Shown here: piece by piece, positions 3,320 through 42,565 of the stretch
Position numbering within the stretch: the first letter of the stretch is position 1
How the letters are laid out: every line of letters starts with the position of its first letter
Virus genome (UHGV): UHGV-1493261
Direction: 5' to 3' (one strand)
Source of the DNA: a virus
Length of the DNA: 64,000 bases
The notes under the pieces: model-generated
What the model saw: only the letters and a program-made list of their open reading frames with translations
Told to the model about the DNA's origin: nothing
The model's database searches: none
Position numbers and translations under genes: made by a program

Positions 3320-4389
3320 TGGACCGCATGCTGAAGGTTGCTAAGAAACACGATGACCAGGCTTCAGTGCTGTCCCAATCAGACGCTCTGGAACCGTCTA
3401 TCATCTGTTCTACTGGTATTCCCCTGATCGACATCGCATGGTCTGGGCGTATTGACGGCGGCCTGATCTCCGGTATCAAGATGATGGTGGGTGATTCCCG
3501 TACCTTCAAAACGATGTTCGGTCTGGTGGACGTCAAGGCGTACATGGACAAGTTCCCTGACGCTATCTGTGTATTTGCTGACTCGGAAAAGGGTGCCAAC
3601 GCCGATTACTGGACCTCTATGGGCATTGACATGGACCGCGTCCTGTACGTACCGATCGACAACGTTGAACAGACCAAGATCCGCTTGCTGCAGATCCTAC
3701 AGGAAGTCAAGAAAGGCGACCATGTTATAATCTTCATCGACTCTATCAGCCAACTTCCCTCCACCAAGGAAGTTGAAGATGCGATCAAAGGGAACGACAC
3801 TCAAGACATGACCCGCGCCCGTGCCCTCAACAGCTTCTGGCGTGTCATGACTCCCGAAATCAACAGCAAAAATCTCGTGTGTGTTTGGATCAACTCCTAT
3901 TACGATGAGATCGGCAACCAATATGCCGAGCCTAACATCAAAGGTGGCAAACAGGGCTTCTTATCCTCCAACTTGATCTGGTTTATCACCCGTTCTCAGG
4001 TGAAGGAAGACAAAGATCTGCTGGGCTGGAACTTCAACATAAGCATCATGAAAGGTCGCCATGTCAAAGAGAAAGCCAAGCTCCCTGTGACGGTACTGTA
4101 CAACGGTGGTATTGATCGCTGGAGCGGCCTGCTTGAGATCGCTCGTGCTCTGGGTTATGTTGATATGCCGTCTTCCGGCTGGTATGTGCGTACAGCCAAG
4201 GGTGGTTTCGATCCTGAGAAGGAAAAGAAATATCAGAAGCGTCAGATGGGTGATGATTTCTGGTATCCGCTGCTGGAGAATGTCAACTTCGCCGATGACG
4301 TGAAGAAAATGTTCGGTGTTTCTAACGGTACTGTTATGCCTGCTAACATGCTGGAGCAAATGGACCATGTTATTAACACAAGCGAATAA
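3304..4389 (+). CDS. uvsX: UvsX RecA-like recombinase
   Basis: 361 aa. Collinear with T4 UvsX: VCVFADSEKG vs VCLFYDSEFG; FIDSISQLPSTKEVEDAIKGNDTQDMTRARALNSFWRVMTPEINSKN vs FIDSLGNLASKKETEDALNEKVVSDMTRAKTMKSLFRIVTPYFSTKN. Confidence 0.92.
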   Translation: MASSLMDRMLKVAKKHDDQASVLSQSDALEPSIICSTGIPLIDIAWSGRIDGGLISGIKMMVGDSRTFKTMFGLVDVKAYMDKFPDAICVFADSEKGANADYWTSMGIDMDRVLYVPIDNVEQTKIRLLQILQEVKKGDHVIIFIDSISQLPSTKEVEDAIKGNDTQDMTRARALNSFWRVMTPEINSKNLVCVWINSYYDEIGNQYAEPNIKGGKQGFLSSNLIWFITRSQVKEDKDLLGWNFNISIMKGRHVKEKAKLPVTVLYNGGIDRWSGLLEIARALGYVDMPSSGWYVRTAKGGFDPEKEKKYQKRQMGDDFWYPLLENVNFADDVKKMFGVSNGTVMPANMLEQMDHVINTSE

Positions 4390-6972: not shown

Positions 6973-8178
6973 ATGAGGCTGGAAATGAACGTCAAAACAT
7001 TCAATATTCCGATCGACAATGAAGGGTTGGTAGTTGAGCGACTGAAGAAGCTCGAGCGCACTGCCGAAAGGTTGGGTGTTCCGTTTCCGACTGTGACTTA
7101 TGGTGAACCCTTCAAAACCCACACCCGCGACTTCACTGGTGAGATCCTTACTCACTGGTGGAAACCTGTCACTCTCGAAGGCGAAGGCATTGACCACCCC
7201 ATCTCTTATGGTGGCTGGAAGATCATCGGTCAGTTCAATCACGAATATCCAAAGGTTATTCTTAACCGCCTGTCCGACAACATCAATCCTGACTTCATCC
7301 GTCGCTTCGAGACAGAGAACGTCTCTTGGTGTCAGCATTGCAATCTAGCCATCCGTCGCAAGAACACGTATGTGATTGAAAATGAGGAAACGCATACCCA
7401 GATGCTGATTGGTAGCACCTGTATGCATCATTATGTGCCTCATCAGAAATCGCTTGACGCGATTATGTCTTACTATCTGGAAATCCAAGAGTTCTTCATG
7501 CCAGACGAGGACGACCCAGAGGGTATATATCGCGTCCAAAATGAGCGCTTCACCGACACCCACAGTTACCTGCGCGCATGCTTCCAGGTGATGCTGGCAG
7601 GCGTGGATATCAAGTCTGAACTGTTTGACAAAGTACTGGGCTATGTCCGGTCTCATCAGAAACCAAAAGCAGGTTCCGATGAAGAGTATTTCGTAAACAA
7701 GGCACACGAATACCGTGAAGATGCCGAGTCGGAAATGTACCATATGAAGCTTTTCATCAGTGCGCTGTCCGAATCTAATGAGTTCAATGTTCGCCTGAAA
7801 CGCATGTGTGAACCCGGCTATCACCTCATCAAGGATAACAACACAGTCTGCTGGGGTGCCAAGAAGTATTACGATTACATCCATCGTCCTCGTACTGACC
7901 GCAAGGCGGAGAACAAATGGGTGGGTGAAGTCAGTGAAATGCTGGAAGTGCAAGTCAGATTCGACAAGCGCACCTTCCTCTTCTCCAATGAATATGGTGA
8001 TAGTTACCTGTTTACTTTCAAAACAGCAGAAGGCAATACAATTACCTGGAAGACCTCTTATATGGATACAGAGTTCTTGCAGGGCGATATGATCATCCGT
8101 GGTCGTGTCAAAGAACTGACTGAGTACAACGGCGTTAAACAAACTCAGGTCACCAGAGCCAAATTGAGGAAATTATGA
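6973..8178 (+). CDS. Hypothetical protein with Cys/His clusters
   Basis: ORF-track start 6952 is TTG; first ATGs are at 6973 and 6985. Contains CQHCN and STCMHH motifs. Confidence 0.5.
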   Translation: MRLEMNVKTFNIPIDNEGLVVERLKKLERTAERLGVPFPTVTYGEPFKTHTRDFTGEILTHWWKPVTLEGEGIDHPISYGGWKIIGQFNHEYPKVILNRLSDNINPDFIRRFETENVSWCQHCNLAIRRKNTYVIENEETHTQMLIGSTCMHHYVPHQKSLDAIMSYYLEIQEFFMPDEDDPEGIYRVQNERFTDTHSYLRACFQVMLAGVDIKSELFDKVLGYVRSHQKPKAGSDEEYFVNKAHEYREDAESEMYHMKLFISALSESNEFNVRLKRMCEPGYHLIKDNNTVCWGAKKYYDYIHRPRTDRKAENKWVGEVSEMLEVQVRFDKRTFLFSNEYGDSYLFTFKTAEGNTITWKTSYMDTEFLQGDMIIRGRVKELTEYNGVKQTQVTRAKLRKL

Positions 8179-8288
8179 ATTTGATTGAGTTTGTTCTGAA
8201 GTCGTTCGCCTTTGGTCTGATAGCATGTGGGATGATTACAGCTATGCTTCTCGTCATAGCCCTGGTCATCCCCTTTAAGAGGAAATAG
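8175..8288 (+). CDS. Small hydrophobic peptide (37 aa, single predicted TM helix)
   Basis: Not in ORF track (below 60 aa). ATG overlaps the upstream stop (ATGA), GAGGAAA RBS; sequence MNLIEFVLKSFAFGLIACGMITAMLLVIALVIPFKRK. Confidence 0.4.
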   Translation: MNLIEFVLKSFAFGLIACGMITAMLLVIALVIPFKRK

Positions 8289-8290
8289 AG

Positions 8291-8491
8291 ATGAAACGTG
8301 AAATCATGGATGTGTACGAGCCAGGATCTTGTTGTCCTGGCCATGACAAGTATCCATCCGATACTTACAAGAATCGACGTTCCAAAGCGCAACGCTCCAA
8401 GAGCATTAAGAAGGAGCATCGCCACGCTCGTCGTGTCAAGCGTCTGGGGCTGAAATCTGACCTGAATACCATTACGCGGGAGGACTTTTGA
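8291..8491 (+). CDS. Hypothetical small basic protein
   Basis: 66 aa, Lys/Arg-rich; AGAGGAAA RBS. Confidence 0.5.
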   Translation: MKREIMDVYEPGSCCPGHDKYPSDTYKNRRSKAQRSKSIKKEHRHARRVKRLGLKSDLNTITREDF

Positions 8492-37584: not shown

Positions 37585-38154
37585 TCAGCCTTTGAAGTTA
37601 ATCGGTTTCTGAATACCAGCGTCGAACGCGGCCTGGGTACGGGTATCGCTCACCACCTGGCAGGTCTTGTCAAGGTCGATGCGCGGGTAGCCGAACATGC
37701 CAGCAATCAACGAACCAGGGAACTGAGCCAGCTTGGTTTCGTATATTGTGCAGATATCCAGCTTCTTGGTCTGGCTGATGCGGAATTCATCACGCCCAGA
37801 ACTGATCACCACCTGGATCTCTTTGTACAGGCTGGAATCGAACTGAATATTCTGCTCCTGGATCCACTGCATGACGGCCTTGGAACCATCAGCGCCATAA
37901 CGCCCTTCGAACGTGCCTTTGATCACTTCCTTCAGGCCGTCTTTATACATGTCAGGAATCTGCGCCGTCTCTTGAACTTTGAGCGTGTAGTTGCTCAGGT
38001 AGTTCTCGGAGTCTTTGTTGAACTTCTTGACCTGCTGCTCAGTGCGGTTGAAGTCGTTGAAGTAGCTGATGACTGTACTGATGCCGAGAATCACTATACC
38101 CAGCAAAGCCAAACCAACTATCCAACCTGTTGCGATACCCTTAGATTGAGACAT
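37585..38154 (-). CDS. LemA-family membrane protein
   Basis: 189 aa. N-terminal TM helix; C-terminal YETKLAQFPGSLIAGMFGY resembles the LemA signature Y-N-x-x-I-x-x-FP-x-x-I-x-AGMFGF. Confidence 0.55.
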   Translation of the reverse strand: MSQSKGIATGWIVGLALLGIVILGISTVISYFNDFNRTEQQVKKFNKDSENYLSNYTLKVQETAQIPDMYKDGLKEVIKGTFEGRYGADGSKAVMQWIQEQNIQFDSSLYKEIQVVISSGRDEFRISQTKKLDICTIYETKLAQFPGSLIAGMFGYPRIDLDKTCQVVSDTRTQAAFDAGIQKPINFKG

Positions 38155-38172
38155 TCTTACTTCCTCTTTTGA

Positions 38173-39288
38173 TTAAAAATTAAACGGATAACGACGACGG
38201 CCACCATTGTACTCCATTCGCTGTAATATGAAAATTGCGGTGAACGGTAGACAGCCCAGCAGAACAACAATCACAACTTCCCAGGTCTTGAGTTCCCGCC
38301 ACTTCAGGTACTCCATTTCCTTCATCTCAACGCGGTTGTAGCCTTTGGTGATGTTAGCGACAACATCAGCCATGACACCGACACCCATGTCGTGGCCTGT
38401 GAGAGCCATACCATTGCGAGAATGGAGTTCACGGTTATGCATACCATCAGCGAACGAAGTGCTCTTACCCCAGTTGATCTTCATGTCTTTGTTGATGTCG
38501 GTCACGACGATAACGTCGTTCTTTTTACCACCATCCCAAGCATAGACCAAGCCCTGGAAGTATTCAACTGGCTGGCCGGAAGTCACAACCCAGACGATGT
38601 TCACCTGCTTGGCTGCGCCCAGCTTCTTCAGGACATCATTCAGATAGTCGTTCCAGTATGTGGTCGGTAACGCCAGACCAGACACATTCAGTACACGAGT
38701 GACGCGATAGTAGTCATAGACTTCGGGATACTTCGGAATCTTGTCTTTGAAGCGCTCAGCAAACTGCTGGTCTGAACGAGAGAACAGAGAGTCTTTGTTG
38801 CCCAGCACATAATTCATATATGAATGTTCACGTGCCGCAGGTTCCCCGATTTTAACTTGTGCCCAGCGCGGCGGTTGACCAAGACCACGACGATCAATAC
38901 GATCAATCGTCAGATTACCAACAGTCGTCAACACATCCCAGTCCACGTCATACGAATGCTCATAGCATGTGCTGCAATGGCGGGTGCGGGTACATGACTT
39001 GCTGCTACCGGAACCGGAACATGATGTGGTGTAGTAGCAGTTGCATTCATATGAATGCTCACAACTCACCTTATTCCGCTCCTTTGCAGTGACGTACCCG
39101 TTCAGGATCTCAACATCCCCAGAACTGCCAAGGGAGAACGCAGCATAAGTCCCCGCCTGAATCAGACAGGATAGCACCACTACAATCGCGGTCGCTATCA
39201 GAGTCTCTTTCGGCTCATGGGTCTTGCGGTGGTAGGTCACAAACAGGATAGCCAGTACCAATGGCACACCAAACAGGAGGTAGATCAT
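38173..39288 (-). CDS. Membrane protein with Cys-rich extracytoplasmic segment (possible LemA partner)
   Basis: 371 aa. N-terminal TM, C-terminal TM pair, Cys cluster CEHSYECNCYYTTSCSGSGSSKSCTRTRHCSTC. Confidence 0.45.
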   Translation of the reverse strand: MIYLLFGVPLVLAILFVTYHRKTHEPKETLIATAIVVVLSCLIQAGTYAAFSLGSSGDVEILNGYVTAKERNKVSCEHSYECNCYYTTSCSGSGSSKSCTRTRHCSTCYEHSYDVDWDVLTTVGNLTIDRIDRRGLGQPPRWAQVKIGEPAAREHSYMNYVLGNKDSLFSRSDQQFAERFKDKIPKYPEVYDYYRVTRVLNVSGLALPTTYWNDYLNDVLKKLGAAKQVNIVWVVTSGQPVEYFQGLVYAWDGGKKNDVIVVTDINKDMKINWGKSTSFADGMHNRELHSRNGMALTGHDMGVGVMADVVANITKGYNRVEMKEMEYLKWRELKTWEVVIVVLLGCLPFTAIFILQRMEYNGGRRRYPFNF

Positions 39289-39503: not shown

Positions 39504-39606
39504 TTGGATTCTCCCATGACGATAACGGAAGCACCAAAAGCCGCTTCCATGTTGAGTAGAGACATATCTTCAATTCGTTGCATTGCCATGATGTATATTC
39601 TTGCAA

Positions 39607-39648
39607 AAAGAAAGGGGAACGGGCTAATAATAACCCATTCCCCTTTAT
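39607..39648 (-). terminator. Intrinsic terminator
   Basis: Minus strand GGGGAATGGG-(loop)-CCCGTTCCCC followed by TTTCTTTTT. Confidence 0.5.
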
Positions 39649-39671
39649 TGAAGGAAGCAACCCCAGTCAGA

Positions 39672-39839
39672 TTACTTTTTCTTCAGCTCTTCCAGTTTGG
39701 CTTCGATTTGTTCTAGGATATCTTTACCCTTCTGAACAATCACTTCACCATCTTGCGCGTGTTTACGGAAGACCAAAGCACCAGCGATGAAGCCGACAAC
39801 CGCGCCAGGAAGCGCATAAACCAGCAGATCTTGTAACAT
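39672..39839 (-). CDS. Small TM protein (55 aa)
   Basis: Not in ORF track. GAGAGGA RBS before ATG; MLQDLLVYALPGAVVGFIAGALVFRKHAQDGEVIVQKGKDILEQIEAKLEELKKK; terminator directly downstream. Confidence 0.45.
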   Translation of the reverse strand: MLQDLLVYALPGAVVGFIAGALVFRKHAQDGEVIVQKGKDILEQIEAKLEELKKK

Positions 39840-39875
39840 GATAATATCCTCTCTTTATAGGCGAGGATATTTATA

Positions 39876-41111
39876 TCAGCGTTTCAAGAGTGCCATGAGG
39901 TTGACGCTGCTGGACTTCGGCTTGTCCTCAACCTTGCGCACAGGCATCTTCAGGTTCGTACATACCTCGGATGGTTCCCAGCGCGTACCCTTTTGCAGGT
40001 GCCAGATATGCAGAGGAACACCAGTCTCAAAGAACACAGGCATCTTCCACTTCTGGACGCCTGGAACGTGCCCTGCAGGAGCCTTTTCACATAACAGGGT
40101 ATCTGGCAGCCAGAGCGAACGGGCTTCCCAGAGCGCTGCGCAGGAGTATTCAGGCCAGACGCGTTCCATGTAGTCTATCTCATCCCAGGTACGCTCTGCG
40201 TCCCACCCGATGTAACGGGTATTCTTCAGTCGGAAGAATTTCTTCAGCCAACAAGCACCGGAGGTTTCAAAGTTCAGGCGGTTGATGAACGTCAGGTGCC
40301 CGAACTCAGCCACACAATCCTGGAACGCCTGCTCAAGGTCGGCCTCAAGGATGTCACACTCTTCATCCGTGATAGGACAACCGTTGATCTTTTTCTTCCC
40401 GTGCTTGGTCACCCAATCGTCACGGTTGGACAAGAACGCCGCACCGTTGCGGTTGGACTCGCTTCCATCACGATCACGCAGCATGAAGCCAGGGACGTCA
40501 ATGGTGTATTCGTTCCCGAAGACCATGTTCAGGGCTTCCAGGAAGTTCCAGGCGCTCAGGCGACCGAAGTATTTCCAGGACATCGCCGTGTCCCACAGCT
40601 GGGTGAATTGTTCTGTCTTATCGATGCACACCAACATCCCACGGAAAGCGTCATATTGAGTACGACCAGCCAGCCAGTCAATATAGGACTGAACACACGG
40701 AATCATCTTGGACTTGCGGTAGCGACAGTCAGTATCGAATCGCATGCGTTCAAAGTTCAGGTTGTACCAGTCTGAGAAGCGCTGCATCTCTTCCTTAGAC
40801 TGAGGCGGCACAGGGAACTCACTGTAGATAGTCCACGGCCCGACGGCGTTATAGCAACAACCCCACAGGAATGCCATCCAGATCTTGCGCTCGACTTTCT
40901 GTTCGAGGCTGATGCCTTCAGTGACTTCGATCGCATAGTCCATCAGACGCATCTGCTGGTTGTGCTCTTCTGTGTAGGACAGCGCCTCCACCCAAGCCTT
41001 GAGCAGGTACATGCGATTCTCAGGTTTACGGTAGTCAACAGCTAGGTCAATCGGGTACTTCCATTCAGTAGGAGGCGTATAGCCCGTCGGCATTTTAGAT
41101 AGATGCGTCAT
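39876..41111 (-). CDS. Hypothetical protein (candidate DNA-modification enzyme by neighbourhood)
   Basis: 411-aa ORF adjacent to a P-loop kinase; no motif recognised. Confidence 0.5.
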   Translation of the reverse strand: MTHLSKMPTGYTPPTEWKYPIDLAVDYRKPENRMYLLKAWVEALSYTEEHNQQMRLMDYAIEVTEGISLEQKVERKIWMAFLWGCCYNAVGPWTIYSEFPVPPQSKEEMQRFSDWYNLNFERMRFDTDCRYRKSKMIPCVQSYIDWLAGRTQYDAFRGMLVCIDKTEQFTQLWDTAMSWKYFGRLSAWNFLEALNMVFGNEYTIDVPGFMLRDRDGSESNRNGAAFLSNRDDWVTKHGKKKINGCPITDEECDILEADLEQAFQDCVAEFGHLTFINRLNFETSGACWLKKFFRLKNTRYIGWDAERTWDEIDYMERVWPEYSCAALWEARSLWLPDTLLCEKAPAGHVPGVQKWKMPVFFETGVPLHIWHLQKGTRWEPSEVCTNLKMPVRKVEDKPKSSSVNLMALLKR

Positions 41112-41586
41112 CTTTCGCTTCCTCTTCAGGAGCCAGCTGAATGTCTTCTGGTTTCACGAACCCCATCGGACGTTCCCACATATCGATAAAGCGACGGTCA
41201 GCGGTCACGAACCACAGACGGGCTGCAGTGTGGGTCTTACTCGAGATGAACATCTGAGCATTCGTCTGGGTACGGAACGGAGCAGCCTGCAACCACTTGC
41301 CGAAGTCTTTGGACGACGGGTTGGCGTTCAGCTGGAACTGAGGGATGACGCAGTTCTTTTCAGGAATCAGGCGCACGGCAGTAATGTGCTTGGCGTTTCC
41401 GGTGTAGTCAATCGCAACAGCCACAGCATCGCGAGGGATTTGAATTTTCATTTTGGTTCCTTGAATATTTTGTAACCAGCAGCGCCGATAGACATCACCG
41501 CGCCAATACAGTACATCACAGTCACGTTCAACTTCTCTGAGGTTGTTAAGTCCAGAGGGGTGAAATGATAAGCTAGGGCAGTACAC
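41095..41586 (-). CDS. Hypothetical protein
   Basis: 163-aa ORF. Confidence 0.5.
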   Translation of the reverse strand: MYCPSLSFHPSGLNNLREVERDCDVLYWRGDVYRRCWLQNIQGTKMKIQIPRDAVAVAIDYTGNAKHITAVRLIPEKNCVIPQFQLNANPSSKDFGKWLQAAPFRTQTNAQMFISSKTHTAARLWFVTADRRFIDMWERPMGFVKPEDIQLAPEEEAKDDASI

Positions 41587-41647
41587 ATTGAAACGGCTGC
41601 CATAACCAGACCAATGAACAACAGATAATTAGACAACCGTTTCATGA

Positions 41648-42565
41648 TCACCCCTTCTTCATCAGGTCAAGGAGAGAGCGCGACGCTGCCTTCGTTGCTT
41701 CTGGCTGGGCGCTCGCCTTGGTTTTAGTTTTGGATGCCTTCTGTGGCTTCTCAGGCACTCTGTGCGCCAAAGGATCCTGGCCGCCGATTTCACGAGTCAT
41801 CGGATTGGTTTCACAGTAGGCGTAAAAGTCTTTGGTGTCCATGTTAACTTCACGCAGTTCGGACCGTATCTGATGACAAATCGCATTACCCACAACCCAC
41901 AGCGGGGCGTCGTATGGGAGCACCGCCAACTCGGACTGCTGTTTGGTCGTGAACTCCTGGGTGTTGGTCTCTGGCGCTTTATACAGGATATCCTGTCCGC
42001 TGTAATCATCAACAGCCACAGTGAAGCCCAGCGCCAGCATTTCGGCCTTCGACTTCTCAAACTCCTTGGAGTAAGATTCGTTGCGCGACCAGCCGGAGTT
42101 CCCTGCTTCTTTACCAGAGCGACCACGGATACGAGCATCGTACTGATAGCGGTCGGGGTACGCAAAGTACAGCAGCGCCAATGATTCAATCGGATAGTTC
42201 TTGAACATCCATTCAGGACGCCATTTGTCCGATAGCATGAGGGGTTCTCCATCACACACCAGAGTGTAACCCTGAACCAACCAGCACTTGATTAGATCAC
42301 GAGCAATATCGCCTGAGCCTGTAGCAGCATGGATTGCATCCATTGAAGTCCAGGAAGCCAGGCCGGATTTGTTAGACACGGTGTACTGTCCAACGAAGAT
42401 TAACTTCAGCTCTCCGAACTTCAAGCCAAACGGGCGAGTCTTGTCACCAACGGTGTAGGTCAGTTCGGTAGGCTCCAGCTTAGTGCGCAGCCATTCGATG
42501 AACTGGACAACACGGGTGCCCTTACCCGTACCGCTGGTTCCTTTCACTACGATAATTTTTGCCAT
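41648..42565 (-). CDS. P-loop kinase (candidate 5-hydroxymethyl-dU DNA kinase)
   Basis: 305 aa. Walker A GTSGTGKGT at the N-terminus; Lys-rich C-terminal tail. Confidence 0.5.
   Translation of the reverse strand: MAKIIVVKGTSGTGKGTRVVQFIEWLRTKLEPTELTYTVGDKTRPFGLKFGELKLIFVGQYTVSNKSGLASWTSMDAIHAATGSGDIARDLIKCWLVQGYTLVCDGEPLMLSDKWRPEWMFKNYPIESLALLYFAYPDRYQYDARIRGRSGKEAGNSGWSRNESYSKEFEKSKAEMLALGFTVAVDDYSGQDILYKAPETNTQEFTTKQQSELAVLPYDAPLWVVGNAICHQIRSELREVNMDTKDFYAYCETNPMTREIGGQDPLAHRVPEKPQKASKTKTKASAQPEATKAASRSLLDLMKKG

What the first reader, a model, noticed from the sequence alone, without database searches (positions are those of the whole stretch)
8175..8288. Unannotated micro-ORFs encoding single-TM peptides (37 aa here; 55 aa at 39672-39839)
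Both fall under the 60-aa cutoff of the ORF track but have good RBSs and hydrophobic helices. The first overlaps its upstream stop (ATGA); the second sits just before a strong terminator. Small membrane peptides in phages often act as holin/antiholin modulators or inhibitors of host membrane complexes.
Basis: seen in the sequence. Interest (0 to 1): 0.4.

Follow-up and report, generated by a model that had tools for sequence, protein, structure and literature searches.

The report
Two real small phage membrane-protein genes
Both micro-ORFs are genuine, conserved genes for tiny single-pass membrane proteins of an Ackermannviridae phage and are already catalogued with unknown function; the 55-aa one belongs to a large phage family that looks like the membrane anchor of the host protein YhcB/ZapG and often sits inside lysis gene cassettes.

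Summary
P1 (8175-8288, + strand, 37 aa) and P2 (39672-39839, MINUS strand, 55 aa) both have Shine-Dalgarno sites and one hydrophobic helix. Both are under purifying selection: variable columns by codon position are 9/3/21 and 6/3/37, with dN/dS about 0.1 and 0.03-0.09.

Each is present in about 220-230 Ackermannviridae genomes. "Unannotated" holds only for the 60-aa ORF track. They match phrog_6569 and phrog_3879, and relatives annotate them as hypothetical membrane proteins (Ag3 orf00054 and orf00248, LIMEstone1 ORF191).

P1 is lineage-restricted. It is translationally coupled (invariant ATGA) to an OB-fold, probably ssDNA-binding, protein in the replication-gene region.

P2 is a self-contained late cassette: a TATAAATA box 28 nt before the ATG, an RBS, the ORF and a strong terminator. 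The cassette is precisely absent in Klebsiella-type relatives and relocated in Serratia phages. P2 belongs to a family of at least 987 clusters of 40-60-aa proteins with the motif VVGFxAGALVFRKH. The family specifically resembles the N-terminal TM and juxtamembrane helix of YhcB/ZapG. In several unrelated phage lineages it lies inside or at the end of holin-endolysin-spanin cassettes.

A lysis-accessory role for P2 is therefore plausible but untested. P1's function remains inferential. The finding is moderately interesting and not novel as an entity.

The parts
6985..8178 (+). Upstream partner gene of P1. The ORF listing gives 408 aa from TTG 6952; the homology-supported start is ATG 6985, giving 397 aa. 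phrog_2319. Contains OB-fold domains and is probably an ssDNA-binding replication or recombination protein.
8166..8171 (+). Shine-Dalgarno GAGGAA for P1, inside the 3' end of the partner gene.
   Evidence: Invariant GAGGAA/GAGGAAG-N3-4-ATGA in all 21 loci, including Klebsiella phage May.
8175..8288 (+). P1: a 37-aa single-pass membrane protein gene (phrog_6569). Predicted topology is N-out/C-in by the positive-inside rule (C-terminal KRK).
8277..8491 (+). RBS AAGAGGA (8277-8283, inside P1's last codons) and the next gene (8291-8491, 66 aa, phrog_5428). In most relatives P1's stop overlaps the next start (TGATG or TAATG).
39868..39875 (-). TATAAATA, a T4-type late-promoter box. It directly abuts the ADDT stop codon (39878-39876) and lies 28 nt upstream of the P2 ATG.
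   Evidence: 100% conserved across Kuttervirus, Agtrevirus and Limestonevirus; annotated as a putative late promoter in LIMEstone1.
39847..39853 (-). Shine-Dalgarno GAGAGGA for P2.
39672..39839 (-). P2: a 55-aa single-pass membrane protein gene (phrog_3879). It has a GxxxGxxxG TM helix (residues 5-23), the FRKH motif and a C-terminal amphipathic charged helix.
39601..39646 (-). Intrinsic terminator ending the P2 transcription unit. It is shared with relatives that lack P2.
39876..41111 (-). Context only: the amino-acid:DNA transferase gene (Pfam ADDT, thymidine hypermodification) upstream of P2. It is not functionally tied to P2.
   Evidence: PF18724, E=4.5e-60. P2 is absent after ADDT in Klebsiella-type loci and lies elsewhere in Serratia phages.

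Best explanation
SHOWN: Both ORFs are bona fide protein-coding genes of an Ackermannviridae phage of the Ag3/ZQ1-like group. Each encodes a tiny bitopic inner-membrane protein.

P1 (37 aa):
- It belongs to a tightly coupled run of genes in the replication-gene region. Its ATG overlaps the stop of an OB-fold, probably ssDNA-binding, protein, and its last codons carry the next gene's RBS.
- It is restricted to Ackermannviridae.
- INFERRED: it is made early or middle in infection, in fixed proportion to its upstream partner. It acts at the cytoplasmic membrane either as a partner or tether of that protein or as an independent small effector on a host membrane component.

P2 (55 aa):
- It is a self-contained accessory cassette consisting of a late-promoter box, an RBS, the ORF and a terminator.
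- INFERRED topology: the N-terminus faces out, and the RKH motif plus the about 30-aa amphipathic helix lie in the cytoplasm. The GxxxGxxxG helix is suited to helix-helix packing.
- SHOWN: it is a member of a large phage family (at least 987 clusters). That family specifically resembles the TM and juxtamembrane segment of YhcB/ZapG, and in several unrelated phage lineages it is embedded in or appended to holin-endolysin-spanin cassettes.
- INFERRED, and the mechanism I commit to: P2 is a late-expressed, non-essential accessory that acts in the inner membrane around the time of lysis. It would work through TM-helix interactions with a holin or another membrane partner to modulate the timing or efficiency of envelope disruption. 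It is not itself the holin, endolysin or spanin.
For: Real genes:
- Frame conservation and codon-position bias.
- Conserved RBS and start codon.
- Presence in 221 (P1) and 229 (P2) phage records.
- PHROG matches at E=4.6e-25 and E=1.2e-31.
- Annotated as membrane proteins in Ag3, LIMEstone1, Se-G, fGh-Ecl02 and AV101.

P1 coupling:
- The ATGA overlap is invariant, while the downstream gene differs between lineages.
- A positional and sequence analogue persists in phiMAM1 at 34% partner identity.
- The partner carries OB folds.
- No late-promoter motifs occur in window positions 1-39 kb.

P2 is late and modular:
- TATAAATA is conserved 28 nt before the ATG.
- The family's late motif CTAAATA(c/t) precedes LIMEstone1 structural genes.
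- 7 of 9 motif sites in the window lie 25-37 nt upstream of ORFs.
- The terminator is confirmed.
- The cassette is precisely absent in Klebsiella-type loci and relocated next to rIIA in Serratia phages, with CTAAATA at the same spacing.

P2 family and lysis context:
- Family breadth; reciprocal tblastn at E about 3e-8.
- The member's ATG abuts or overlaps the i-spanin stop in L041 and L043; it lies between a 2-TM holin-like gene and an M15 endolysin in L053; it lies just downstream of the lysis cassette in Providencia and Morganella prophages.
- 41 freshwater-phage loci place it directly before a protein with a lipobox, a coiled coil and C-terminal TM helices, which is a u-spanin-like architecture.
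- No holin is listed for the Vi01-like core genome (PMC10892097).
Against: - There are no expression, localisation or phenotype data for either peptide. Two virion proteomes (PMC3296691, PMC10892097) do not report them, although small TM peptides are easily missed and non-virion proteins are not expected there.
- In this window P2 is not adjacent to any lysis gene. Ackermannviridae lysis genes are scattered.
- The family also occurs in non-lysis contexts: a capsid module, among T4-like small ORFs in Erwinia phage FBB1, and in an unannotatable contig.
- The slot after a lambdoid lysis cassette is also a classic moron site.
- P2 is dispensable in Klebsiella-type relatives.
- The bulk neighbour census was largely unannotatable.
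- TATAAATA occurs once in the window against 0.8 expected, so the count alone is not significant.
- P1's link to its partner rests on synteny and coupling only.
Confidence: 0.5

Rival explanations
1. P2 is a decoy of the host YhcB/ZapG/LapD transmembrane segment. It inserts into the inner membrane and competes for the TM-mediated contacts of YhcB, such as those with LapA/YciS and RodZ. This would uncouple the coordination of LPS, peptidoglycan and phospholipid synthesis late in infection and weaken the envelope, or block division. It would not act on phage lysis proteins directly.
For: - hhalign of the family against E. coli YhcB residues 4-49 gives probability 84.7% and 37% identity.
- Pfam ZapG-like, profile positions 1-48, matches 13 of 22 members.
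- The NCBIfam ZapG equivalog, positions 4-49, matches 14 of 22 members.
- The family HMM scores authentic YhcBs at 37.5, 26.7 and 7.6 bits, against 4.4 bits or less for 258 decoys that include i-spanins, holins and shuffled YhcB N-termini.
- JGI names many members 'YhcB (DUF1043)'.
Against: - All HMM matches are far below curated cutoffs (15-21 bits against 33.5 and 150).
- The exhaustive profile search with the Ackermannviridae-only profile did not return YhcB at E<=0.001.
- The two high-scoring YhcBs were picked out by a motif scan, which is a selection bias. E. coli's own YhcB scores only 7.6 bits.
- Glycine-zipper TM helices converge easily.
- There are no interaction data.
Confidence: 0.17
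2. P1 and/or P2 are generic accessory (moron-like) membrane peptides unrelated to lysis. Examples would be superinfection exclusion, protection against another phage or a host defence, or inhibition of a host membrane transporter or protease. On this reading, P2's position next to lysis cassettes reflects insertion hot-spots at module boundaries.
For: - P2 has its own promoter and terminator, shows presence/absence polymorphism, and is relocated within the family.
- In L039 and L045 the member is separated from the lysis cassette by a gap or a hairpin and has its own RBS.
- Non-lysis contexts exist.
- P1 lies among early/middle genes, where T4-like phages keep many small host-directed proteins (established knowledge of T4 biology).
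Against: - Tight translational coupling to the i-spanin (L041, L043) and to the endolysin (L053) argues for co-expression within the lysis operon.
- Late expression is unusual for exclusion functions, which are typically early.
- There are no PADLOC matches.
Confidence: 0.22
3. P2 is itself the missing holin (or a pinholin-like hole former) of these Ackermannviridae.
For: - It is late-expressed, small and has a single TM helix with a glycine zipper and a charged cytoplasmic tail.
- No holin is listed among the Vi01-like core genes.
- The family is linked to lysis cassettes.
Against: - It is absent from Klebsiella-type Ackermannviridae, which still lyse their hosts.
- In the other phages it co-occurs with one or two recognisable holins, so it is additional to them rather than a replacement.
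- It matches no Pfam holin family.
- It has no dual-start motif.
Confidence: 0.06
4. The ORFs are chance open frames, or are conserved only because of overlapping signals (an antisense ORF, RNA structure, or neighbouring RBSs), and are not translated.
For: They are very short. P1 is overlapped by a 128-aa antisense ORF that shares its third codon positions. There is no direct expression evidence.
Against: - The antisense and other frames contain stops in CBA120, Se-G and May, while the P1 and P2 frames never do.
- dN/dS is well below 1, with 21 of 33 and 37 of 46 variable sites at third positions.
- P2 has thousands of homologues of the same length and architecture.
Confidence: 0.02

Closest known systems
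PHROG families phrog_6569 (P1) and phrog_3879 (P2); GenBank 'hypothetical membrane protein' CDSs such as Shigella phage Ag3 orf00054 and orf00248, and Dickeya phage LIMEstone1 ORF191
   Same: Full-length HMM matches (E=4.6e-25 and 1.2e-31). Protein identity to these CDSs is 86-100%. Synteny is the same, and the same promoter and terminator are annotated in LIMEstone1.
   Different: Nothing differs at the sequence level. These entries carry no function, so membership names the genes but does not explain them.
YhcB / ZapG / LapD (DUF1043, PF06295; NCBIfam NF008672), N-terminal transmembrane and juxtamembrane segment
   Same: N-terminal single TM helix with the small-xxx-small pattern (E)YALIxLVVGxIxGAxxxR, followed by a basic juxtamembrane stretch and a cytoplasmic helix. 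The resemblance is specific when tested against decoys.
   Different: P2 ends after about 30 cytoplasmic residues. It lacks the roughly 100-aa coiled-coil body, including the region mapped for the FtsI, RodZ and YidC interactions (PMC8163987). All scores are far below family thresholds. It is phage-encoded and late-expressed.
Accessory lysis-cassette membrane proteins (antiholins and lysis regulators such as T4 RI, P2 LysA, P1 LydB and Mu gp25 releasin; comparison from general knowledge of phage lysis)
   Same: Small membrane proteins encoded with holin, endolysin and spanin genes. They are non-essential modulators rather than executors. P2-family members occupy such positions in several phages.
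   Different: No sequence similarity to any of these proteins. In this window P2 is not in a lysis cassette. No cognate holin has been identified, and no functional data exist.
Spanin components (Rz1-type o-spanin; T1 gp11-type u-spanin)
   Same: Small size and a position next to the i-spanin gene in some cassettes.
   Different: P2 has no lipobox and no Cys, so it cannot be an outer-membrane lipoprotein.
T4 small early membrane proteins (Imm, Sp, Ac and similar; from general knowledge), as an analogy for P1
   Same: A tiny single-TM protein encoded among early/middle genes of a T4-related phage.
   Different: No sequence similarity was detected. P1 is translationally coupled to an OB-fold DNA-binding protein, which is not a feature of those genes.

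Membership tests
phrog_6569 (P1) | Significant full-length match to the family HMM | tested here: met
   E=4.6e-25, residues 1-37 on profile positions 1-37 of 38.
phrog_3879 (P2) | Significant full-length match to the family HMM | tested here: met
   E=1.2e-31, residues 2-55 on profile positions 1-54 of 54. All 22 diverse members of alignment A2 also match.
YhcB/ZapG (DUF1043) | Score at or above the curated threshold of PF06295 or NF008672 | tested here: not met
   Best scores are 14-21 bits against cutoffs of 33.5 and 150.
YhcB/ZapG (DUF1043) | N-terminal TM helix with the conserved small-residue motif | tested here: met
   hhalign probability 84.7% over YhcB residues 4-49. The family HMM separates YhcBs from 258 decoys.
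YhcB/ZapG (DUF1043) | A roughly 100-aa cytoplasmic coiled-coil domain that carries the partner-binding region | tested here: not met
   P2 is 55 aa in total. Matches cover only profile positions 1-49.
Holin (any class) | Match to a known holin family | tested here: not met
   No holin family appears in the Pfam scan at E<=1, or in the PHROGs scan, for P1 or P2.
Holin (any class) | Encoded next to the endolysin or spanin genes | tested here: not met
   In the window and its relatives the neighbours are ADDT, small ORFs and two membrane proteins. The feature is met only for homologues in other phages, where separate holins are also present.
Holin (any class) | Lethal hole formation or membrane depolarisation on expression | not testable with these tools
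   Requires an experiment.
o-spanin (Rz1-like) | Lipoprotein signal with a lipobox Cys | tested here: not met
   P2 has no Cys. Family members have no lipobox.
T4-type late transcription unit | A TATAAATA-like -10 element with no -35 element, closely upstream of the gene and conserved | tested here: met
   TATAAATA lies 28 nt before the ATG and is invariant in all loci. The family motif CTAAATA(c/t) precedes structural genes. 7 of 9 sites in the window are correctly placed.
T4-type late transcription unit | Transcript appears late and depends on a gp55-type sigma factor | not testable with these tools
   No transcriptome for this phage family was found.
Moron-like accessory cassette | Own promoter and terminator, and presence/absence polymorphism among close relatives | tested here: met
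   cassette absent, terminator retained; relocated copy.
Cationic lytic peptide (phiKT gp28 'disruptin' type; from general knowledge) | Strongly cationic amphipathic peptide | tested here: not met
   P2's net charge is 0 (8 K+R, 8 D+E).

The most novel reading that the evidence does not exclude
P2-type peptides (phrog_3879) are phage-encoded mimics of the transmembrane anchor of the host envelope-coordination protein YhcB/ZapG/LapD. They are expressed late, often from within the lysis cassette, and titrate YhcB's TM-mediated partners (LapA/YciS, RodZ and possibly YhcB itself). This would prime the envelope for lysis. If so, they represent a new class of lysis accessory that works by sabotaging host envelope homeostasis rather than by acting on the holin.
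Probability: 0.15. Interest if true: 0.7.

Novelty: already known. Interest (0 to 1): 0.35.

Why it matters
As entities these genes are ordinary. They are small conserved hypothetical membrane proteins that standard annotation already records in most relatives. The practical lesson is that a 60-aa ORF cutoff hides real genes. P1's equivalent is also missing from the CBA120, May and phiMAM1 records.

The more useful outcome concerns P2. A 40-60-aa family with at least about 1000 sequence clusters has three notable properties:
- it sits inside or beside holin-endolysin-spanin cassettes in unrelated phage lineages;
- it is driven by a late-promoter box in Ackermannviridae;
- it specifically resembles the membrane anchor of YhcB/ZapG/LapD.

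If it modulates lysis or targets host envelope coordination, it would add a widespread and easily testable small component to the phage lysis toolkit. It would also give a handle on how Ackermannviridae, for which no holin is listed, time their lysis.

Tried and rejected
- The solved-structure sequence search with the P2 family profile returned only generic coiled coils at E>=0.06.
- PADLOC gave nothing for either peptide.
- Pfam gave no hit for P1, and only sub-threshold glycine-zipper hits for P2 alone.
P1's breadth was therefore assessed by tblastn and a viral-contig scan, which found only Ackermannviridae.
- TATAAATA enrichment in the window: 1 observed against 0.8 expected, which is not significant by itself. 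I replaced it with cross-genome conservation and the family-specific motif analysis.
- A functional link between P2 and the adjacent ADDT (thymidine hypermodification) gene is rejected. The cassette is absent after ADDT in Klebsiella-type phages and lies elsewhere in Serratia phages.
- A bulk Pfam and PHROG census of 79 neighbours from environmental viral contigs was almost entirely unannotatable.
- The contexts in Erwinia phage FBB1 and contig L059 were uninformative.
- The weak tblastn hits to Erwinia phage AH04 gp20 (E=0.4) and to Campylobacter phages (E about 0.03) were not pursued and are not used as evidence.
- Literature searches found no transcriptomic or proteomic detection of either peptide.
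- The antisense 'shadow ORF' explanation for P1's codon bias is rejected.
- AF2 of P2 alone was not run, because a monomeric helix would not discriminate between the hypotheses.
Full report
**Identity of the window.** Both loci match Ackermannviridae phages at 90-98% DNA identity. The closest relatives are Escherichia phages ZQ1, 4HA11, YX22, RPN242 and AV101, Enterobacter phage fGh-Ecl02, and Shigella phage Ag3 and its relatives. Around P2 the gene order in relatives is DNA polymerase ... amino-acid:DNA transferase (ADDT) - P2 - small ORFs - a 371-aa membrane protein - a 189-aa protein ... rIIA - rIIB.

**Check of the observation.**
- P1 (8175-8288, + strand) encodes MNLIEFVLKSFAFGLIACGMITAMLLVIALVIPFKRK. 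GAGGAA lies at 8166-8171. The ATG overlaps the TGA of the upstream ORF (ATGA). P1's last codons contain the RBS of the next gene, which starts at 8291.
- P2 (39672-39839) lies on the minus strand and encodes MLQDLLVYALPGAVVGFIAGALVFRKHAQDGEVIVQKGKDILEQIEAKLEELKKK. GAGAGGA lies 8 nt before the ATG. A 16-bp-stem terminator follows at 39646-39611 on the minus strand.
- Each peptide has one strongly hydrophobic 19-residue window (mean KD 2.73 and 2.23). Basic residues lie on the C-terminal side, so the positive-inside rule predicts an N-out/C-in topology. P2 carries GxxxGxxxG (G12, G16, G20) and an amphipathic tail with net charge of about 0.

**Are they genes?** Yes.
- tblastn finds P2 in 229 phage records and P1 in 221, covering Kuttervirus, Agtrevirus and Limestonevirus. 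Divergent copies occur in Serratia Miltonvirus (P2, 59% identity) and Klebsiella Taipeivirus (P1, 43% identity).
- Across non-identical orthologues, variable alignment columns by codon position are 9/3/21 for P1 and 6/3/37 for P2. dN/dS against the more distant genera is 0.09-0.12 for P1 and 0.03-0.09 for P2.
- A 128-aa antisense ORF shares third codon positions with P1. That frame, and every other alternative frame, acquires stop codons in CBA120, Se-G and May. The P1 and P2 frames never do.
- Start codons, Shine-Dalgarno sequences and the ATGA overlap are invariant.

**Are they unannotated?** Only relative to the 60-aa ORF track.
- They match phrog_6569 (E=4.6e-25) and phrog_3879 (E=1.2e-31), both of unknown function.
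- Ag3 annotates orf00054 and orf00248 as 'hypothetical membrane protein, one transmembrane domain'.
- LIMEstone1 ORF191 is annotated 'putative transmembrane domain and coiled coil', with a putative late promoter before it and a terminator after it.
- Se-G, fGh-Ecl02 and AV101 annotate 'membrane protein'.
- P1's equivalent is missing from the CBA120 and Klebsiella phage May records, where a gap of exactly the right size holds the intact ORF.

**P1 in context.**
- P1 relatives occur only on Ackermannviridae-sized contigs.
- P1 always starts at the stop codon of the same upstream gene (true start ATG 6985; phrog_2319). The downstream gene differs between lineages. In most relatives P1's stop also overlaps the next start (TGATG or TAATG).
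- In Serratia phiMAM1 the partner is only 34% identical. There, an unannotated 30-aa ORF (MFSTIYSVEFWAGFSVGISVIALIITFAKR) starts 3 nt after the partner's stop, behind a GAGG, and ends in a similar hydrophobic-then-basic tail.
- Vibrio phage homologues of the partner (21-24% identity) have no such ORF.
- With primase-helicase upstream and DNA ligase downstream, the partner is probably an ssDNA-binding replication or recombination protein.
- No late-promoter-like motif occurs in the first 39 kb of the window.
- From this I infer that P1 is an early/middle membrane peptide made in fixed ratio with this protein. Whether it tethers or regulates the partner, or acts independently on a host membrane target, cannot be decided here.

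**P2 is a late, modular cassette.**
- Directly after the ADDT stop (39878-39876) comes TATAAATA (39875-39868), 28 nt before the P2 ATG. It is invariant in all Kuttervirus, Agtrevirus and Limestonevirus loci, although neighbouring intergenic bases vary.
- It is the only TATAAATA in the 64 kb (0.8 expected), so the count alone proves nothing.
- Predicted late promoters before LIMEstone1 capsid, sheath, tailspike and baseplate genes read CTAAATA(c/t) (33 late promoters are reported in PMC3296691).
- In the window, 9 [CA]TAAATA[CT] sites occur (4.1 +/- 1.9 expected). Seven lie 25-37 nt upstream of a same-strand ATG ORF, and all nine lie beyond 39 kb.
- In Klebsiella-type relatives the ADDT stop is followed within about 20 nt by the same terminator hairpin. 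The roughly 230-nt promoter-RBS-ORF unit is precisely absent, and tblastn finds no P2 in 45 Klebsiella phage records.
- In Serratia phages the homologue lies elsewhere, next to rIIA. It is preceded by ccCTAAATAat at the same 28-nt spacing and followed by a hairpin.
- P2 is therefore an accessory, moron-like late unit and is not tied to ADDT.

**P2 belongs to a large family.**
- A profile of Ackermannviridae P2 sequences, searched exhaustively against 1.84 billion representative proteins, found 40-60-aa proteins sharing VVGF(I/V)AGALVFR(K/N)(H/N) followed by a charged helix.
- All 22 aligned members match phrog_3879.
- A lysis-cassette member from a temperate phage hits the Ackermannviridae genes at E about 3e-8 with about 62% identity.
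- In the cultured-phage collection the family is essentially confined to Ackermannviridae. The rest come from prophages and metagenomic phage contigs.

**Gene neighbourhoods of the family.**

| Loci | Arrangement |
|---|---|
| L041/L042 and L043/L044 | holin_8 - holin_3_7 - lysozyme - DUF2514 i-spanin - member. The member's ATG abuts or overlaps the spanin stop, and its RBS lies inside the spanin gene. |
| L053 | 2-TM holin-like 83 aa - member - M15 endolysin (stop/start overlap) |
| L039/L040 (Providencia), L045/L046 (Morganella) | holin - endolysin - Rz-like spanin, then the member a short distance downstream with its own RBS |
| 41 non-redundant freshwater-phage loci | tail-fibre-like ~1000 aa - ~65 aa - member - ~245-aa protein with an N-terminal lipobox, a coiled coil and 2-3 C-terminal TM helices (a u-spanin-like architecture; one weak XhlA hit) - a 94-aa HExxH protein |
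| One phage group (L038, L054-L056) | inside the capsid module |
| Erwinia phage FBB1; contig L059 | uninformative |

The lysis association is recurrent across unrelated cassettes but not universal. Part of it could reflect the moron hot-spot after lambdoid lysis genes. Family members lack Cys, so they are not o-spanins. They co-occur with recognisable holins, so they are additional to the holin. For Vi01-like phages, the core-gene table of PMC10892097 lists an endolysin, spanins and rIIA/B but no holin.

**Resemblance to YhcB/ZapG.**
- JGI labels many family members 'YhcB (DUF1043)'.
- Pfam ZapG-like (profile positions 1-48) matches 13 of 22 members below threshold.
- The NCBIfam ZapG equivalog (positions 4-49) matches 14 of 22.
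- hhalign against authentic E. coli YhcB (gene fetched) gives probability 84.7% and 37% identity over YhcB residues 4-49.
- A motif scan of representative genomes pulled out full-length YhcBs of Arsenophonus and Hartigia (MIWEYALIGLIVGFIIGALVFRFGN...).
- In a specificity control, the family HMM scored these YhcBs at 37.5 and 26.7 bits and E. coli YhcB at 7.6 bits. All 258 decoys scored 4.4 bits or less. The decoys were four i-spanins with the same TM-plus-coiled-coil architecture, holins, 40 TM ORFs from the window and 200 shuffled YhcB N-termini.
- Caveats: the two best YhcBs were selected by the motif; all scores are far below family cutoffs; and P2 lacks the roughly 100-aa coiled-coil body. 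P2 therefore resembles part of YhcB but is not a member of DUF1043.
[quoted passage not shown] This makes a TM-level decoy mechanism conceivable but entirely untested.

**Verdict.**
- They are already catalogued as conserved hypothetical membrane proteins, so as entities they are not novel.
- My best reading of P1 is an early/middle membrane peptide coupled to an OB-fold replication protein.
- My best reading of P2 is a late, dispensable inner-membrane accessory acting around lysis through TM-helix interactions.
- The YhcB-anchor-mimic reading is the most novel alternative that the evidence does not exclude.

No expression or phenotype data exist for either peptide. Two virion proteomes do not list them, which is uninformative for small non-structural membrane peptides.

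Noticed in passing
window 37585-39288 (minus strand): A conserved pair of membrane-protein genes lies downstream of P2. One encodes 371 aa (phrog_2087: an N-terminal TM, a Cys-rich middle region and C-terminal TMs). The other encodes 189 aa (phrog_1383, 'virion structural protein', with weak LemA, DUF948 and PADLOC LeoBC hits). Ag3 notes similarity to Aeromonas phage Aeh1 p306/p307. In Serratia phage 2050H1, genes of similar size (361 and 182 aa) lie just upstream of the relocated P2 homologue; whether they are homologues of this pair was not tested.
   Followed up: partly
window 39876-41111 (minus strand): The gene upstream of P2 is an amino-acid:DNA transferase (Pfam ADDT PF18724, E=4.5e-60; annotated in one relative as aGPT-Pplase clade 2). 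It is a thymidine-hypermodification enzyme.
   Followed up: partly
window 6985-8178 (+ strand): The 397-aa protein of phrog_2319 has no Pfam match. Its AF2 model shows OB-fold barrels like those of RPA, SSB, PriB and the MCM N-domain, and its alignment has invariant Cys/His positions (C116, C119, C146, H148), suggesting a Zn site. One GenBank relative calls it 'RecT-like'. Distant homologues occur in Vibrio schizoT4 phages (KVP40.0369).
   Followed up: partly
window 39874, 46716, 50338, 50438, 56379, 60238, 63486: [CA]TAAATA[CT] motifs lie 25-37 nt upstream of ATG ORFs, often as CTAAATACCCC. They are likely late promoters of this phage family. All lie in the 39-64 kb part of the window and none in the first 39 kb.
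   Followed up: partly
L034 1501-1617 (CBA120); L035 1801-1917 (Klebsiella phage May); L049 2125-2217 (Serratia phiMAM1): The GenBank/RefSeq records of these reference phages lack a CDS for the P1 equivalent, although the ORF, its RBS and the ATGA overlap are intact. In phiMAM1 it is a 30-aa version.
   Followed up: yes
window 41448-41651 (minus strand): Another small hydrophobic ORF, 67 aa (MIMKRLSNYLLFIGLVMAAVSMCTALAYHF...). A 65-aa ORF at the matching position in relatives is annotated as a two-TM or 'putative membrane protein' (Ag3 orf00244; AV101). Sequence similarity to it was not checked. This region is rich in small membrane proteins.
   Followed up: no
L090 3636-4394 and equivalents in about 30 freshwater-phage loci: A ~245-aa protein with an N-terminal lipobox (LAGC), a long coiled coil (weak XhlA hit) and 2-3 C-terminal TM helices. 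This unusual architecture resembles a unimolecular spanin or a spanin-holin hybrid. It is followed by a 94-aa HExxH protein.
   Followed up: partly
L045 5490-5714 (Morganella prophage): A 74-aa gene between the Rz-like spanin and the P2-family member carries a faint Acb2/Tad1-hairpin Pfam hit, making it a possible anti-CBASS/Thoeris sponge-like moron.
   Followed up: no
alignment A3, columns 206-235 (window about 39665-39690 against L022 about 4195-4222): The last codons of ADDT in Klebsiella-type phages (...LMSLMKK*) align with the last codons of P2 (...LEELKKK*) just before the shared terminator. This may be chance or a recombination scar from gain or loss of the cassette.
   Followed up: no
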